DNA from: a virus
Length of the DNA stretch: 39,506 nt
Direction: 5' to 3' (one strand)
Virus genome (UHGV): UHGV-0354001
A program made the position numbers. Of the stretch, positions 6,001 to 12,000 are shown piece after piece (positions within the stretch are counted from its first letter, which is position 1; every line of letters begins with the position of its first letter).

Positions 6001-9000
6001 GCGGGTTCTGGATGGTGACCTTATTTCCGGATGGGAAAAACGTCAGGTGCTGAAAGAGGACAATGGTAACGTTTCGCAAACGGCAAAATCCCCGGCAGAG
6101 CGCAAGAGAGCGCAGCGGGAGCGCGAAAAGCTGCGGAAATATGATGCTGATTGTCACGATGAGTCACGACGTGTCACGCATCTGTCACGACAAGTCACGA
6201 CAGATAAAGATACAGATACAGAATTAAACCCCACACATAACGCGCGTATGCGCGAGAGTGCTCCAACCGGTGAGTCGCATGGTGCGCCGTTGCAGACAGC
6301 CGAACCTGAATACCTGGACGGCCTGAGCGAACCGATCGGGAAATTTTCGATGACTACTGTCTGGCAGCCGTCGTCGGATTTTCGACAACGGGCAGCAGTG
6401 TGGGGTATGGCTCTGCCTGAGCCGGAATTTACACCTGCAGAGCTTGCCGCATTCCGGGATTACTGGATGGCGGAGGGGAAGGTTTTCACGCAGGTTCAGT
6501 GGGAGCAGAAATTTGCCCGCCACGTGCAGCACGTCAGGGCACAGGTAAAACCAGTCAGCAAGGGGGTAAGCCATGCAGCATCAGGTGGCACGGCATCACG
6601 GGCAGTTCAGGAAATCCGGGCAGCACGCGAACAGTGGGAACGTGACAACGGATTTATCAGCAACGGAAACGGCCTGGAAGCTGTGGGAGCTTATGGGGGA
6701 GGTGTATTCGAACCGCTGGACACAGAAGAACGGGGCCGCACCTTCGAAGCTCTGGATTGCCCAGATTGGCGCGATGACTGAACAGCAAATCCGGCTGGTC
6801 TGCCGTCAGTGCATGGACCGCTGCCGGGCGGGTGAAACGTGGCCCCCGGACCTGGCTGAGTTTGTTGCACTGATTTCGGAGAGTGGGGCAAATCCATTTG
6901 GTCTTACGGTGGATGCAGTGATGGAAGAGTACCGGCGCTGGCGCAATGAATCCTGGCGATACGACGGGAGTGATAAATACCCGTGGCCACAGCCTGTGCT
7001 GTACCACATCTGCCTCGAAATGCGTACCAGAGGGATTGAGCGCCAGATGACGCAGGGTGAGTTAAAACGACTTGCGGAACGGCAACTGACGAAATGGGCA
7101 AAGCATGTTGGTAACGGGATGAGTGTTCCGCCAGTGCGACGACAACTGGAAGGGGCGAAACACCCGCAAGGGCCAACGCCAATTGAACGGCTGAAACAGG
7201 AATACGAACGCCGGAAGGCAGCTGGTTTTATTTGAATCTGAGAAACGATTTTGTCGGAGGAAATTTTAATGGAAACCGTATTTGACGCACTGAAAGCAAT
7301 GGGAAAAGCCACATCGGTAGAACTGGCCGCGCGACTTGATATCAGTCGTGAAGAGGTTCTCAACGAGCTGTGGGAACTCAAAAGAAATGGCGTCGTTGAT
7401 AAAACTGGTCACACCTGGTTTCTGGCTGGCGAAGGTGAATCCCGGGTAACCGAAGAGCGGCCAGTAAAATCTGAAGCACAGGATATGCTGACCGGAGAGG
7501 TCGAACAAAAAGTTACCGCAGACATGATGATTGAGTTTATCGGTCAGGATGGTGCTAAAACGTGTGAGGAACTGGCGGGTAAGTTCGGCGTCAGTACTCG
7601 CAAGGTTGCCTCCACGCTGGCGGTGGTAACCGCAACGGGGCGGCTGGCACGCGTTAATCAGAACGGTAAATTTCGTTACTGCATGCCGGGCGATAATTTA
7701 CCAGCAGAGCCGAAAGCCGCGCTGGTAACGGAAAGTGATGGTAAGGCCTTTCCTCAGCCAGCAGGTGCTGCGTTACCAGTCCGGGAAGCCGCAACACAGG
7801 AAGAAATTAAAACAGAAACTGTGGCGGACATTGTGCAGCCGTTGCCATCGTTTACCGAAACGCAAGCAGATGAGCTGATTTTTCCGTCCCTTCGCAGGGC
7901 AAACCTGGCGCTGCGCAGGGCGAAAAGTGATGTTCAGAAGTGGGAGCGAGTCTGCGCCGCGCTGCGGGAGCTGAACAAGCACCGGGATATTGTTCGACAG
8001 ATTACTGATTCTTCCCGCCGTGTTGTATCGGAAAAGTGATTGCCGGAGGCGCTTATGGCAAAAGTATTTACACCAGAAGAGCGGGAAGAAGTGAAGGCGC
8101 GCATTGTGGAATTCGTGCGCCTGAGCGGACGAGAAACTTTTCGACAACTGGCAGATAAAACGGGTGTCAGTAAGACCGCTATTCGTCGTTTATCTGGTGC
8201 GCTTGCGGCCAGTGGTGATGTCTGGCTCTCTGGTTGCGGGGTATTTCCATCAGAGCAGGCGTATCGCGTATGGCGTAAGACACCGGAGAAGGCTGCTGAC
8301 CCGACACTGATTCGAAAGTTACCAGACGGAGAAATACGCCGCTACGACAGGCGCCTGAATATAATCTGTCGCGAGTGCCGGAAGAGCGAAGCTATGCAGC
8401 GTGTACTGACATTTTATCAAGGAAATGTTAGGTATTTTAGACGTTACTAGATTAAAGAGCATTAGTTCAGATGTGAATTGACATTTTCATGGCGCAGGGT
8501 AGAGCCAGCGTGGTTGTCCGCTTTGCGTCAAAACCAGATATTACCAGATTTAGACATATATTCCCGATAGCCCTGCTCTGATGCTACACTCTGTGCTATT
8601 TTCATGACCCCAATAAAAATATTTATGACTATTGCTGATTTCAAACGGCCTAAATTGGAACTCCCAAACGGGGCAAACAAACTACTACTGCACTCTTGCT
8701 GTGCTCCATGTTCCGGTGAAGTGATGGAGGCGCTTCAGGCCTCGGGAATCGACTACACCATCTTTTTCTACAACCCGAACATTCATCCTCAGAAAGAGTA
8801 TTTAATTCGTAAGGATGAAAATATTCGCTTTGCTGAACAACACGGCGTGCCGTTTATCGATGCTGATTACGACACCGACAACTGGTTTGAACGTGCCAAA
8901 GGAATGGAATGGGAGCCTGAGAGGGGGATCCGTTGTACCATGTGTTTTGACATGCGTTTTGAGCGGACAGCGTTGTACGCTGCTGAAAATGGTTTCAGTG

Positions 9001-12000
9001 TGATCAGCAGTTCACTGGGCATTTCACGCTGGAAAAATATGCAGCAGGTTAACGAGTGTGGGCGGCGAGCTGTTGCGCATTATCCGGGTATGGTGTACTG
9101 GGATTATAACTGGCGCAAGCAGGGCGGCTCGTCCCGTATGATTGAAATCAGCAAGCGCGAAAAATTCTATCAGCAGGAATATTGTGGCTGTGTGTATTCT
9201 CTGCGCGATACCAATCTACACCGCAAATCTCAGGGACGCCCTCTTATCAAAATTGGCCAACTCCACTACGGAAAAGAAGAGAAGGAGTGATTTTATGGAT
9301 CACCTTTCTGATTGATTTCATATTGGCGAGGTGACGTGAGTTAAGTAGAATTGCTGCGGGTGCCTGAGGCTGTCTGCCTCAGGCATGAACACCAAAAGGC
9401 AGATAGAGAAAGCCCCAGTTAACATTACGCGTCCTGTAAGACGCTCAACATTAATCTGAGGCATATGGATGCGGATGAAAGAATTAAATAAATTCAGAGT
9501 GATAGACCTCTTTTGTGGGGCAGGTGGATTATCTTATGGTTTTCTTCATGGAGAGATGTCTGACTACTTTGAAAGTATCCTTGCTATTGATAATAATGCT
9601 GCAGCTATAAATACCTACAATGCCAATTTTGGTTTGCATGGAGTTCAGGCAAATATTGAGGAGTGGGCATCCAGCAATACTGTTCCTGAGGCTGATGTGG
9701 TCATAGGTGGCCCCCCGTGTCAGGGATTCAGTTTATTAAATAAGAATCGTTATGGTGATCACCGAAGAGCATTGTGGGAGCCTTATATGGATGTCATTGA
9801 GCGTTCAAGGGCTTGTATGTTCGTCATGGAAAATGTCCCCGGATTGCTGATAAGCGATGAGTTTGCGGACATTACGTTTAGAGCGAAATCCATGGGCTTT
9901 ATTCTGCTTAATCCAATGGTGTTGAATACTGCTGACTATGGAGTACCTCAGACAAGAAAACGAACGATAGCAATCGGTATCAAACGAGAACTCTTCGATG
10001 TGCATAGTATTCCGGCGTTCCCGCCAGCACCAACGCATCGTTCCCCTGATAAGGATGTCGCTTTGCCTGAATGGGTCTGTACGCGTGATGCAATTGGTGA
10101 CTTACCTGCTCCTGTTGGAACTGATATTCGTAATGAACTTCCTCCGCTGAACTTACATTTTGGGCGTAATCCCACACCTGTTTCTCTGGAGCGATATAAA
10201 GCGGTTCCACCAGGAGGTAACCGTTTCGATTTACAGAAAAAAAGACCTGATATAACCCCGGCGTGCTGGCTAAAAAAGAAATCTGGAGGGACCGATTTGT
10301 TTGGACGTCTGTGGTGGGACAGACCTTCAGTAACGATTCGTACTGAGTTTTTCAAACCGGAGAAAGGGCGATATTTACATCCGGAAGAGGATCGGCCAAT
10401 AACTCATCGTGAGGCAGCGAGATTAATGTCTTTTCCTGATAATTTCATTTTTACCGGTTCAAAAACTGAGATTGCAAAGCAGATCGGGAATGCTGTTCCA
10501 CCGCTATTTGCGGCAAAAATCGCACAATATGTGTATGGAGTTTTGCAGGGACGGTATAAGAATAACATCAGTAAGAATAGTCAAGCAGCCTGAAGGAAAT
10601 CCAGAAATGAATGGAGATTTGGTTGACAGCATAGTTGGTTTTGCTGAAGCCAGAAAGGAGTTTCATGCCCAATTGTTACTGAATACGCTCACAATTAATA
10701 CTGCCGGAGTTGTTAGTAACGCAGATAGCAGTAACAAAAACAGTAAAGCTATAGCAAGAGAAATTGCTCGCTTCTTGCAGGCTGAAACGATTGGTGAACG
10801 TGTTGCAGGGCAAACATCTGGTAATCAGTTTGAGAGTATCTGCGCAGAGTTTATAGAAAAAACCTTTTTTAAACTCAGCCACTTACGCCCTGGAAAATGG
10901 AATGTACATCAGGTTTCTGGTAGAAACAGATTAGAGATAGCTAAATATGAACAATATGCCCATCTTATAGCATTGGATAGTGCTGCAAAAAGTAATCCTC
11001 AGCTAGCTGCTGCACTGGGGAGTGATTATACGATTTCACCAGATATTATTGTTGAAAGAGAACCTGAATGTGATCAAGTTATCAACAGTCCTGAATTACT
11101 GGTGGATGATTCTGTTACCCGCATGTCAGCTCTCAGGAGTTCGAATGGTGGGAAACCAATATTACACGCAAGTATTTCCTGCAAATGGACAATAAGAAGC
11201 GACCGGGCCCAGAATGCTCGTTCTGAGGCATTAAATCTTATTCGCAACCGTAAGGGAAATCTCCCTCATGTAATGGTTGTTACTGCTGAGCCTACTCCAA
11301 GTCGTCTGGCGTCTATTGCTCTTGGTACTGGTGATATAGATTGCGTGTATCATTTTGCGCTTTATGAACTTATATCAGCAGTTGAAATACTGGGGCTCAG
11401 CGATGCAGCTGACATGCTTTCCGTGATGGTTAATGGTAAAAGATTAAAGGATATTTCTGATCTTCCCTTGGATCTTGCAGTCTGACATCTCTACGTAAAT
11501 AGAGTCTGTCATATTTTAACTGTGATGGCACGTCATTGACTTCAGTACATTTTTACTAACCCGCTTCGCGGGTTTTGTTTTTTCCTGGCATTCTGGTTTA
11601 CAATCCACACGCCAGCCTGAACAACTGGCACCTGCTGCGCCAGCAGAGACAACCGATGGCGCACGATACCAAATTACACAATTCTGATGATTCTGCCGTC
11701 TTTGCCAGCAGGCACGGGCGGCGTTCCCGCACTTTCAAATCTGACTGGTTCCAGCATCCCCCATGCACTGAAGAACAGGCCGAATGGCTAATTCATAACT
11801 ATCGCAGACGCGGATACGAGATTAAGAAAGCCCTCAGCCTCGATTATCGTCACTGGATAATCTATGTCAGGCTCCCTTATTCCGAACGCCCACCGCGCCC
11901 ATCCCGCACATACCAGCAACGGATCTGGAGGTAACGTGCGGATATTACTTCGACCTGTTCTGGTACCGGAACTCGGGCTGGTGATCGTTAAGCCGGGCAG

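What the first reader, a model, noticed from the sequence alone, without database searches (positions are those of the whole stretch)
8451..9290. Prophage-borne QueH (DUF208) homolog as stand-alone cargo in the nin region
The ORF carries the DUF208/QueH motifs ([16 protein letters not shown], CxxC...CGC), the family that reduces epoxyqueuosine to queuosine in tRNA. E. coli normally uses the unrelated QueG for this step, so a phage-carried QueH is unexpected. It sits behind its own AT-rich intergenic region in a prophage that also carries three tRNA genes. It may tune host tRNA modification or translation, or have been recruited to a nucleic-acid modification role.
Basis: partly seen in the sequence, partly recalled or inferred. 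Interest (0 to 1): 0.65.

Follow-up and report, generated by a model that had tools for sequence, protein, structure and literature searches.

The report
Prophage-carried QueH tRNA queuosine reductase
A lambda-like prophage of E. coli carries an intact copy, with its own promoter, of QueH, the vitamin-B12-independent enzyme for the last step of queuosine tRNA modification, although every E. coli already has the B12-dependent QueG; the gene is real, common and conserved, but it belongs to a known enzyme family and databases already name it.

Summary
Window 8625-9290 (+), with an alternative ATG at 8604, encodes a full-length QueH (Pfam PF02677, E=1e-65). It keeps every family-invariant residue, including the CCxPC, CxxC and CGC cysteines.

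It is a single-gene cargo between the replication module (DUF1627, DUF977) and a hok/sok locus. An extended -10 element (TGCTACACT, 8582-8590) is conserved even in chromosomal orthologs.

The gene occurs in 995 of 5426 complete E. coli genomes, including E. coli B. queG is present in all 5426. Prophage alleles show dN/dS of about 0.05. The closest relatives (79-92% identity) are ordinary chromosomal queH genes of Enterobacter, Erwinia, Providencia and Photorhabdus.

The prophage has no TGT/DpdA or preQ0 genes, and its three tRNAs are not queuosine substrates. A DNA-modification role is therefore unsupported.

Best reading: an active, cobalamin-independent epoxyqueuosine reductase acting on host tRNA. 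It would remove the B12 dependence of queuosine formation in E. coli, which cannot make B12.

The NgoMIV restriction-modification pair next to it is incidental (57 genomes). It lies in a defence hotspot that elsewhere holds Kiwa, RosmerTA or hok/sok.

NCBI already names the protein QueH. No paper found discusses its prophage carriage.

The parts
8040..8450 (+). DUF977 / Ren-like exclusion protein gene. It is the conserved left neighbour and left boundary of the queH cargo unit.
   Evidence: Pfam DUF977 E=4.6e-39. PHROG 142 'Ren-like exclusion protein'. It precedes queH in 80 of 80 IMG/VR loci although its own alleles range from 56 to 99% identity.
8451..8624 (+). AT-rich intergenic region upstream of queH. 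Only its 3' part belongs to the gene as captured.
   Evidence: GC is 40.8% against 52.6% for the window. It is 99-100% conserved in 79 of 88 prophage loci. The 3' 64-116 nt are conserved in the divergent alleles. Homology to the chromosomal Scandinavium queH locus starts at 8575.
8582..8590 (+). Putative extended -10 promoter element, TGcTACACT (-10 hexamer at 8585-8590), about 35 nt upstream of the ATG.
   Evidence: GCTACA(C/A)T is the only block conserved upstream of queH in 4 prophage alleles and 4 of 5 chromosomal orthologs (Scandinavium, two Enterobacter, Symbiopectobacterium). The third Enterobacter, MGH 24, has TGCTACCCT, which MAFFT leaves shifted about 8 columns from that block. The flanks are otherwise unalignable (A2). 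The consensus scanner, which requires a -35 hexamer, did not report it. Promoter function is inferred, not shown.
8625..9290 (+). queH coding sequence: 221 aa, stop codon included, with an alternative upstream ATG at 8604. Epoxyqueuosine reductase QueH (DUF208).
   Evidence: Pfam PF02677 E=1.1e-65, full length. PDB 7lc5 E=8e-22. All invariant family residues are present (A1). dN/dS is 0.045-0.058 among prophage alleles. RefSeq WP_000150294.1 is named 'epoxyqueuosine reductase QueH'.
9293..9462 (+). Leader of a hok/sok (hokD-type) locus. It is the right boundary of the queH cargo unit and is truncated here by the restriction-modification cassette.
   Evidence: It is 90-95% identical to the sequence directly upstream of hokD in other strains. 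It is present in 3947 of 5426 genomes, most of which lack queH. The Rfam sok model RF01794 matches 9358-9538 at 61 bits against a gathering score of 59. No Hok ORF is present in the window.
9469..11485 (+). NgoMIV-type type II restriction-modification pair: m5C methyltransferase 9469/9475-10593 and endonuclease 10607-11485. It is neighbouring cargo and is not functionally tied to queH.
   Evidence: Pfam DNA_methylase E=4e-54 and NgoMIV_restric E=1e-126. PADLOC MTase_II and REase_II. It is found with queH in only 57 of 5426 genomes and 20-21 of 80 IMG/VR loci.

Best explanation
The gene encodes a catalytically competent QueH, a cobalamin-independent iron-sulfur enzyme. It reduces epoxyqueuosine (oQ) to queuosine (Q) at position 34 of the host tRNAs for Asp, Asn, His and Tyr.

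It was captured from an Enterobacteriaceae chromosome as a single gene together with about 50 bp of its own promoter region. It now sits as a moron (accessory gene with its own promoter) between the replication module and the hok/sok defence slot of Rac/Qin-type lambdoid prophages. It is probably transcribed from its own extended -10 promoter in the lysogen.

E. coli QueG needs cobalamin, which E. coli cannot synthesise de novo. The prophage copy would therefore make the last step of Q synthesis independent of external B12 supply, much as MetE backs up MetH.

What is shown: identity, intactness, conservation, prevalence and context. What is inferred: the enzymatic activity on E. coli tRNA, expression in the lysogen, and B12 independence as the selective benefit.
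For: Family identity:
- Full-length QueH domain.
- Homology to the solved QueH structure.
- All 14 invariant and 14 nearly invariant family columns retained, including C25, C26, C29, C104, C107, C187 and C189.

Orthology to housekeeping genes:
- 79-92% identity to chromosomal queH in core contexts: Erwinia purL-queH-glrK, Providencia next to tmcA, Photorhabdus, and Enterobacter near icd and rluE.

Selection:
- dN/dS is 0.045-0.058 at dS 0.11-0.46 among alleles that all lie in prophages.
- The gene stays intact in decayed prophages such as the E. coli B Qin-type element, where neighbouring genes are pseudogenes.

Prevalence and redundancy:
- queH is in 995 of 5426 complete genomes, and queG is in 5426 of 5426.

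Own expression signal:
- A conserved TGCTACA(C/A)T element is shared with chromosomal orthologs, and homology to the chromosomal locus begins 50 bp upstream of the ATG.

Substrate source:
- No other Q or 7-deazaguanine gene is in the prophage, so the substrate must be host-made.

Literature:
- QueH is listed as the cobamide-independent alternative to QueG (PMC6461909).
- Established knowledge, from memory and not read here: Frey et al. 1988 reported that E. coli accumulates oQ without B12.
Against: - No experiment on this protein exists in the searched literature.
- No clear physiological difference between oQ-tRNA and Q-tRNA is known in E. coli, so the benefit of B12 independence is conjecture.
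- The leader has no recognisable Shine-Dalgarno sequence, and the promoter has no -35 hexamer.
- Part of the synonymous divergence between alleles may predate capture, or reflect exchange with chromosomal copies, rather than evolution inside phages.
- The phage's own genes show ordinary NAU/NAC codon usage (0.52-0.54), so there is no sign that phage translation especially needs Q.
Confidence: 0.65

Rival explanations
1. Same enzyme chemistry but a conflict-related role. By keeping Q (rather than oQ) high regardless of B12, the prophage would alter the host's response to other phages or to anticodon-directed toxins. That would make it part of the prophage's exclusion and defence repertoire rather than a metabolic backup.
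For: - queH sits between a Ren-like exclusion protein and a slot that holds hok/sok, NgoMIV restriction-modification, Kiwa KwaAB, two RosmerTA variants and a ParE-like toxin-antitoxin pair in different prophages.
- In O157:H7 OK1 the queH position itself holds a different cargo gene.
- A 2026 preprint reports that phage infection raises Q/oQ through queG in Shewanella and that Q promotes phage resistance (bioRxiv 10.64898/2026.03.05.709803).
Against: - QueH matches no PADLOC defence model.
- Its closest relatives are housekeeping genes in non-defence contexts.
- Proximity to a hotspot is expected for any moron.
- No data link oQ versus Q to phage outcome in E. coli.
Confidence: 0.15
2. Neutral hitchhiker. 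This would be a functional or semi-functional gene picked up by chance, carried along by linkage with the conserved DUF977 and hok/sok flanks, and bringing no benefit to phage or host.
For: - queG is universal, so queH is formally redundant.
- 82% of genomes do without it.
- The most common allele is nearly clonal: 707 genomes at 99% identity or more, consistent with recent spread.
Against: - dN/dS is about 0.05 across alleles diverged to dS 0.46.
- 985 of 995 copies are near full length.
- The gene is intact in degraded prophages beside pseudogenised neighbours.
- It is retained across mosaic backgrounds in which DUF977 alleles differ by 35-45%.
Confidence: 0.12
3. A repurposed enzyme acting on something other than host tRNA, for example a 7-deazaguanine or epoxide-bearing base in phage DNA, as part of a DNA-modification or anti-restriction system.
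For: - Phages are known to use Q-pathway enzymes for DNA modification (PMC6884629).
- The gene lies next to a DNA methyltransferase in this window.
Against: - No TGT/DpdA, QueA or preQ0-synthesis gene is present anywhere in the 39.5-kb prophage.
- The methyltransferase belongs to a complete restriction-modification pair found with queH in only 57 genomes.
- The sequence is 79-92% identical to housekeeping tRNA enzymes, with no divergent active site.
- Hutinet et al. found no QueA, QueG or QueH in 7-deazaguanine phages.
Confidence: 0.04

Closest known systems
QueH (DUF208, PF02677), cobalamin-independent tRNA epoxyqueuosine(34) reductase. The family was defined by Zallot et al. 2017 and the T. 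maritima structure is 7lc5.
   Same: - Full-length domain.
- All invariant residues and the three cysteine motifs.
- 33% identity to the solved enzyme.
- 79-92% identity to chromosomal QueH of other Enterobacterales.
   Different: - It is carried on a temperate phage, in a host that already has QueG in every genome.
- At the position of T. maritima Asp13 it has Cys (CCAPC). This is the majority state of the family (over 90% of 34 diverse members), so it is not a deviation.
- It has a basic C-terminal tail of about 25 residues, shared with its proteobacterial orthologs and absent from the T. maritima enzyme.
QueG, the cobalamin- and iron-sulfur-dependent epoxyqueuosine reductase of E. coli (b4166).
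   Same: Predicted to catalyse the same reaction on the same tRNAs.
   Different: - Unrelated fold and cofactor requirement.
- queG is core (5426 of 5426 genomes), whereas queH is accessory and prophage-borne (995 of 5426).
Phage 7-deazaguanine DNA-modification systems (DpdA with FolE, QueD, QueE and QueC; Hutinet et al. 2019).
   Same: Both use enzymes from the queuosine pathway and are carried by phages.
   Different: - Those systems centre on a DpdA/TGT transglycosylase plus preQ0 synthesis, and explicitly lack QueA, QueG and QueH (PMC6884629).
- This prophage has only QueH and none of the others.
Lambdoid prophage morons and auxiliary metabolic genes with their own promoters, such as bor and lom of lambda or the cargo downstream of Q in Stx phages.
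   Same: - A single gene of foreign GC content (48% against 52.6%).
- Its own conserved promoter element.
- Presence or absence varies between otherwise similar prophages.
- It lies in a cargo hotspot.
   Different: The cargo is a tRNA-hypermodification enzyme. No paper found by the searches describes that for temperate coliphages.

Membership tests
QueH / DUF208 epoxyqueuosine reductase | Full-length match to the family profile (PF02677) above the curated threshold | tested here: met
   E=1.1e-65, 221.5 bits against a cut-off of 23.5. Residues 27-201 of the 228-aa form cover profile positions 1-174 of 175.
QueH / DUF208 epoxyqueuosine reductase | Conserved cysteine motifs (CCxPC, CxxC, CGC) and the other invariant residues that build the metal sites and active site | tested here: met
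   In an alignment of 34 diverse members, including T. maritima QueH, all invariant columns are kept: C25, C26, N52, Y59, R62, E99, R103, C104, C107, K137, Q184, C187, G188 and C189. The nearly invariant P28 and C29 are kept too (A1). Which residue ligates which metal was not read from the structure paper, which is not held.
QueH / DUF208 epoxyqueuosine reductase | Sequence homology to an experimentally solved QueH | tested here: met
   7lc5, 7lc7 and 9deu at E=7.8e-22, aligned over residues 27-203 of the query and 4-178 of 192 in the chain. No structure was predicted here.
QueH / DUF208 epoxyqueuosine reductase | Orthology to queH genes that sit in ordinary chromosomal contexts | tested here: met
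   79-92% identity to chromosomal genes of Erwinia, Providencia, Photorhabdus, Serratia, Enterobacter and Scandinavium. Among 80 species representatives, only E. albertii shares the prophage context.
QueH / DUF208 epoxyqueuosine reductase | Reduction of oQ34 to Q34 in tRNA without cobalamin | not testable with these tools
   This needs complementation of a queG deletion and LC-MS of tRNA nucleosides.
QueH / DUF208 epoxyqueuosine reductase | Presence in the cell of the upstream pathway (Tgt, QueA) that makes oQ-tRNA | not tested
   That E. coli has tgt and queA is established knowledge. Only queG was checked here: it is present in 5426 of 5426 genomes, which implies the pathway is in use.
Phage 7-deazaguanine DNA-modification system (Dpd-like) | A DpdA/TGT-family transglycosylase and preQ0-synthesis genes in the same element | tested here: not met
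   A Pfam scan of all substantial ORFs in the window finds only standard lambdoid functions. There is no TGT, QueC, QueD, QueE or FolE.
Known anti-phage defence systems (PADLOC-DB 2.0) | Match of the protein to a defence-system component model | tested here: not met
   QueH matches no family at E<=0.01. The neighbouring methyltransferase and endonuclease match type II restriction-modification models.
Prophage moron / auxiliary gene | A discrete insertion with its own expression signal, variably present between related prophages | tested here: met
   - The unit is bounded by the DUF977 stop and the hok/sok leader.
- In O157:H7 OK1 it is replaced by another gene.
- The hok/sok leader is in 3947 genomes but queH in only 995.
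- A conserved extended -10 element is present.
- Promoter activity itself was not tested.

The most novel reading that the evidence does not exclude
The prophage QueH is a lysogenic-conversion factor that uncouples queuosine formation from vitamin B12. Its position at the edge of the prophage's defence hotspot would reflect a conflict function: holding tRNA in the Q rather than the oQ state would change the outcome of superinfection, or sensitivity to anticodon-targeting toxins. It could also let lysogens lose or repress the B12 receptor BtuB, itself a phage and colicin receptor, at lower cost. If so, this would be the first temperate-coliphage gene shown to act through a tRNA hypermodification.
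Probability: 0.12. Interest if true: 0.75.

Novelty: new member of a known kind. Interest (0 to 1): 0.42.

Why it matters
Queuosine status affects decoding of NAU/NAC codons, and its last step in E. coli depends on a vitamin the species cannot make. About one in five sequenced E. coli, including strain B, O157:H7 and ST131 isolates, carry a phage-borne, B12-independent bypass. Three consequences follow:

- oQ/Q ratios, and queG-deletion phenotypes, should differ between K-12 (no queH) and many natural or laboratory strains.
- tRNA hypermodification would join the list of host functions that temperate phages bring with them. A survey of phage queuosine-pathway genes reported no QueA, QueG or QueH in viruses (PMC6884629), and PHROGs lists the family as 'unknown function'.
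- It gives a simple genetic handle for asking what oQ versus Q does physiologically.

The enzyme itself is not new.

Tried and rejected
- **Link to the prophage tRNA genes.** The three tRNAs are Met/Ile-CAT, Arg-TCG and Arg-TCT, none of which carries Q. Rejected.
- **Phage codon bias towards Q-decoded NAU codons.** NAU share is 0.54 in early genes and 0.52 in late genes. From memory, that is about the E. coli average. No signal.
- **Functional coupling with the adjacent NgoMIV restriction-modification pair.** They co-occur in only 57 of 5426 genomes, and other prophages have other cargo at that position. Rejected.
- **A Dcm-like hit next to chromosomal queH in Erwinia and Pantoea.** It proved to be the ordinary dcm-vsr pair on the opposite strand. 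Judged coincidental.
- **Consensus promoter and terminator scan of 7900-9700.** Nothing in the queH intergenic region. The conserved -10 element appeared only in the ortholog alignment.
- **NCBIfam.** No model matched QueH.
- **Literature.** Searches for QueH, DUF208 or epoxyqueuosine reductase together with phage or prophage, and for the RefSeq accessions, found no paper on prophage QueH. Several 'QueH' text hits were author names or DUF208x families.
- **Papers not held.** The QueH discovery paper, the QueH structure paper and the QueG discovery paper could not be read.
- **Phage-collection hits outside E. coli.** The 'Acinetobacter phage MD-2021a' records of 328-378 kb, the Staphylococcus and Listeria 'Kay' records, and short faecal contigs look like bacterial or unverified sequence. 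They were not counted as phage QueH.
- **Not done.** No structure prediction was run, because sequence homology to a solved QueH was already decisive.

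
Full report
**1. What is there**

The + strand carries an ORF ending at 9290, with two possible starts: ATG 8604 (228 aa) and ATG 8625 (221 aa). RefSeq uses 8625 (WP_000150294.1). The N-termini of prophage and chromosomal orthologs line up with that start, so I take 8625-9290 as the gene.

The protein matches Pfam QueH (PF02677) over the whole profile: E=1.1e-65, 221.5 bits against a cut-off of 23.5. It also matches the solved Thermotoga maritima QueH (7lc5) at E=8e-22 over residues 4-178 of 192.

I aligned it with 33 other sequences: the T. 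maritima chain and 32 diverse family representatives taken from an exhaustive HMMER search. Every invariant column is kept: C25, C26, N52, Y59, R62, E99, R103, C104, C107, K137, Q184, C187, G188 and C189 (221-aa numbering). The nearly invariant P28 and C29 are kept too. T. maritima has Asp where this protein and more than 90% of the family have Cys (CCAPC), so the prophage protein follows the majority pattern.

**2. Surroundings**

The window is a complete lambdoid prophage, in this order:
- exonuclease, DicF and dicB region, repressor, cro and YdaT;
- DnaT-like O and P replication genes, then DUF1627 and DUF977;
- queH;
- m5C methyltransferase and NgoMIV-family endonuclease;
- DUF968/HNH, RusA and Q;
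- three tRNAs;
- lysis, terminase, head and tail genes.

No TGT/DpdA, QueA, QueC, QueD, QueE, QueF or FolE is present, so any QueH substrate must be made by the host. The three tRNAs (Met/Ile-CAT, Arg-TCG, Arg-TCT) are not queuosine tRNAs, so their presence is unrelated.

**3. queH is a discrete, single-gene cargo unit**

Comparison with other strains shows homology breaking at two points: the DUF977 stop codon, and window 9293, where the leader of a hokD-type hok/sok locus begins. The Rfam sok model also hits 9358-9538.

That leader occurs in 3947 of 5426 complete E. coli genomes, but queH in only 995. In O157:H7 strain OK1 the same position, between DUF977 and hokD, holds an alpha/beta-hydrolase gene on the other strand.

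In 80 of 80 IMG/VR loci queH follows DUF977, even though the DUF977 alleles are only 56-99% identical to the window's.

**4. An expression signal of its own**

The 174-bp intergenic region is AT-rich: 40.8% GC against 52.6% for the window. The generic promoter scan found nothing there.

I aligned the 110 nt around the start codon from four prophage alleles and five chromosomal orthologs. One conserved block stands out in an otherwise unalignable sequence: (T)GCTACA(C/A)T, about 35 nt upstream of the ATG (A2). In the window this is 8582-8590. Eight of the nine sequences carry it in register. The ninth, Enterobacter MGH 24, has TGCTACCCT, which MAFFT left shifted about 8 columns from the block.

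The block has the form of an extended -10 promoter (TGnTAnnnT). DNA homology to the chromosomal Scandinavium locus starts at 8575 and ends 4 nt after the stop codon.

The simplest reading is that the gene was captured together with its native promoter. Promoter activity is inferred, not shown.

**5. Origin**

The nearest relatives outside Escherichia prophages are chromosomal:
- Scandinavium 92%, Kluyvera 91%, Enterobacter 88-90%;
- then Erwinia, Pantoea, Dickeya, Serratia, Photorhabdus and Providencia at 79-87%.

Their contexts are ordinary core neighbourhoods:
- purL-queH-glrK in Erwinia;
- beside tmcA in Providencia;
- near benE in Photorhabdus;
- near icd and rluE in Enterobacter.

Among 80 species-representative genomes, only E. 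albertii shares the prophage context. The clade is highly conserved, still 75-78% identical in Sphingomonas and Stenotrophomonas. That argues against any change of function.

**6. Prevalence and selection**

queH is found in 995 of 5426 complete E. coli genomes, near full length in 985. Carriers include E. coli B, O157:H7 and ST131 isolates, and every listed copy is annotated 'epoxyqueuosine reductase QueH'. The exact protein is on at least 1000 contigs in the large protein collection. queG is in all 5426 genomes, so carriers have both enzymes.

Pairwise Nei-Gojobori estimates between the window allele and six diverged alleles, five from prophages in E. coli genomes and one from the isolated phage HannyBb, give dN/dS of 0.045-0.058 at dS 0.11-0.46.

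In the decayed Qin-type element of E. coli B the gene is intact, while the neighbouring methyltransferase and DUF968 genes are pseudogenes.

One caveat applies. Part of the synonymous divergence could predate capture or come from exchange with chromosomal copies.

**7. Phage status**

One isolated phage in the 50,697-record collection carries it: Escherichia phage HannyBb, 95% identity, same position, annotated 'hypothetical protein'. IMG/VR holds 190 related loci.

PHROGs has the family (phrog_3217) as 'unknown function'. PADLOC has no model for it.

Hutinet et al. 2019 state that no homologs of QueA, QueG or QueH were found in the viruses they analysed (PMC6884629).

My searches found no paper on prophage QueH.

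**8. The neighbouring slot**

The stretch between queH and the small ORF upstream of the DUF968 gene (orf119, window 11575-11934) is a cargo hotspot. Among 73 IMG/VR loci it contains:
- only mok/hok in 33;
- the NgoMIV restriction-modification pair in 20, which replaces the hok ORF but keeps the leader;
- otherwise a lipoprotein, a ParE-like toxin-antitoxin pair, IS elements, or two-gene HTH-peptidase cassettes that PADLOC identifies as RosmerTA.

Other E. coli genomes have Kiwa KwaA and KwaB there. queH and the restriction-modification pair occur together in only 57 genomes, so they are not a unit.

**9. Mechanism**

The evidence fits an active QueH that reduces oQ34 to Q34 on host tRNAs for Asp, Asn, His and Tyr. 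QueH enzymes are described as cobalamin-independent, unlike QueG (PMC5615194; PMC6461909). E. coli cannot make cobalamin de novo (established knowledge).

The most economical benefit is therefore that lysogens finish queuosine synthesis whether or not B12 is available, as MetE does for MetH. This last step is inference.

The phage's own genes show ordinary NAU/NAC usage, so a special need of phage translation is not indicated.

A conflict-related role cannot be excluded. The location at a defence hotspot, and a 2026 preprint linking the oQ-to-Q step to phage infection in Shewanella, both point that way. That role would use the same chemistry.

A DNA-modification role is unsupported.

**10. Verdict**

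The family assignment is correct and already present in public annotation.

The tRNA-gene link and the DNA-modification idea fail. 'Tunes host tRNA modification' stands as the likely function.

It is a new vehicle for a known enzyme. It is of moderate interest because it is common, conserved, apparently unnoticed in the literature, and easy to test.

Noticed in passing
window 9293-11560; L003 7049-8688; L021 4891-6625; L086 8226-9982; L012 slot: The position just downstream of queH is a defence and toxin-antitoxin hotspot of Rac/Qin-type lambdoid prophages. Different prophages hold hok/sok alone, NgoMIV restriction-modification, Kiwa KwaAB, two distinct RosmerTA (RmrT/RmrA) cassettes, a ParE-like toxin-antitoxin pair, a lipoprotein, or IS elements.
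   Followed up: partly
window 9293-9538: The NgoMIV restriction-modification cassette is inserted into a hokD-type hok/sok locus. The leader (9293-9462) and a match to Rfam sok RF01794 (9358-9538, 61 bits against a gathering score of 59) remain, but the Hok ORF is gone. The methyltransferase start (9469) lies inside the sok-model match. A promoter-like site at 9323-9351 may now drive the restriction-modification genes.
   Followed up: partly
window 14254-16966: Downstream of Q lie three tRNAs, then the sRNA STnc100 (14579-14787, 132 bits) and the anti-stx2 sRNA AsxR (14791-14843, minus strand, 63 bits, exactly at the gathering score). A 656-aa DUF1737/SASA esterase/DUF6645 protein follows, at the place where I recall Stx phages carrying stx (not checked here). 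This looks like an stx-less relative of Stx phages.
   Followed up: no
window 3177-3228 (-): DicF antisense sRNA (Rfam RF00039, 61 bits). The identical-queH relative L001 annotates dicB, ydfC and ydfB in the matching region, which marks the prophage as Qin/dicB-type.
   Followed up: no
L172 2347-3120 (E. coli O157:H7 OK1): In this prophage the queH position, between DUF977 and hokD, holds an 'alpha/beta hydrolase' gene on the opposite strand. It has no Pfam hit at E<=0.001. It is an alternative cargo of unknown function.
   Followed up: partly
L174 (E. coli strain B, NZ_CP115178 1611379-1612044): The classical laboratory strain B carries an intact queH (94% nt identity) in a decayed Qin-type prophage, beside pseudogenes. 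B-lineage strains may therefore differ from K-12 in oQ/Q chemistry and in queG-deletion phenotype.
   Followed up: partly
L174 4714-4899, L176 4714-4899, L004 7762-7968: In the 94-97% allele group a short truncated 'methyltransferase' ORF lies between DUF977 and queH. It is absent from the window, where homology to HannyBb starts only at 8509.
   Followed up: no
L095 4677-7669 (Enterobacter sp. ECC-175); L102 4870-7639 (Erwinia typographi): Chromosomal queH lies near icd in Enterobacter. From memory, icd is a lambdoid attachment site in E. coli, which could be a route for capture. In Erwinia typographi it lies next to dcm-vsr. Both are probably coincidental.
   Followed up: no
PHROGs phrog_3217 against window 8625-9290: The PHROG profile for this family is 188 residues long and begins at residue 34 of the protein. 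Phage gene calls for it may therefore be N-terminally truncated, cutting off the CCAPC motif at residues 25-29. This may explain why phage resources list it as 'unknown function'.
   Followed up: no
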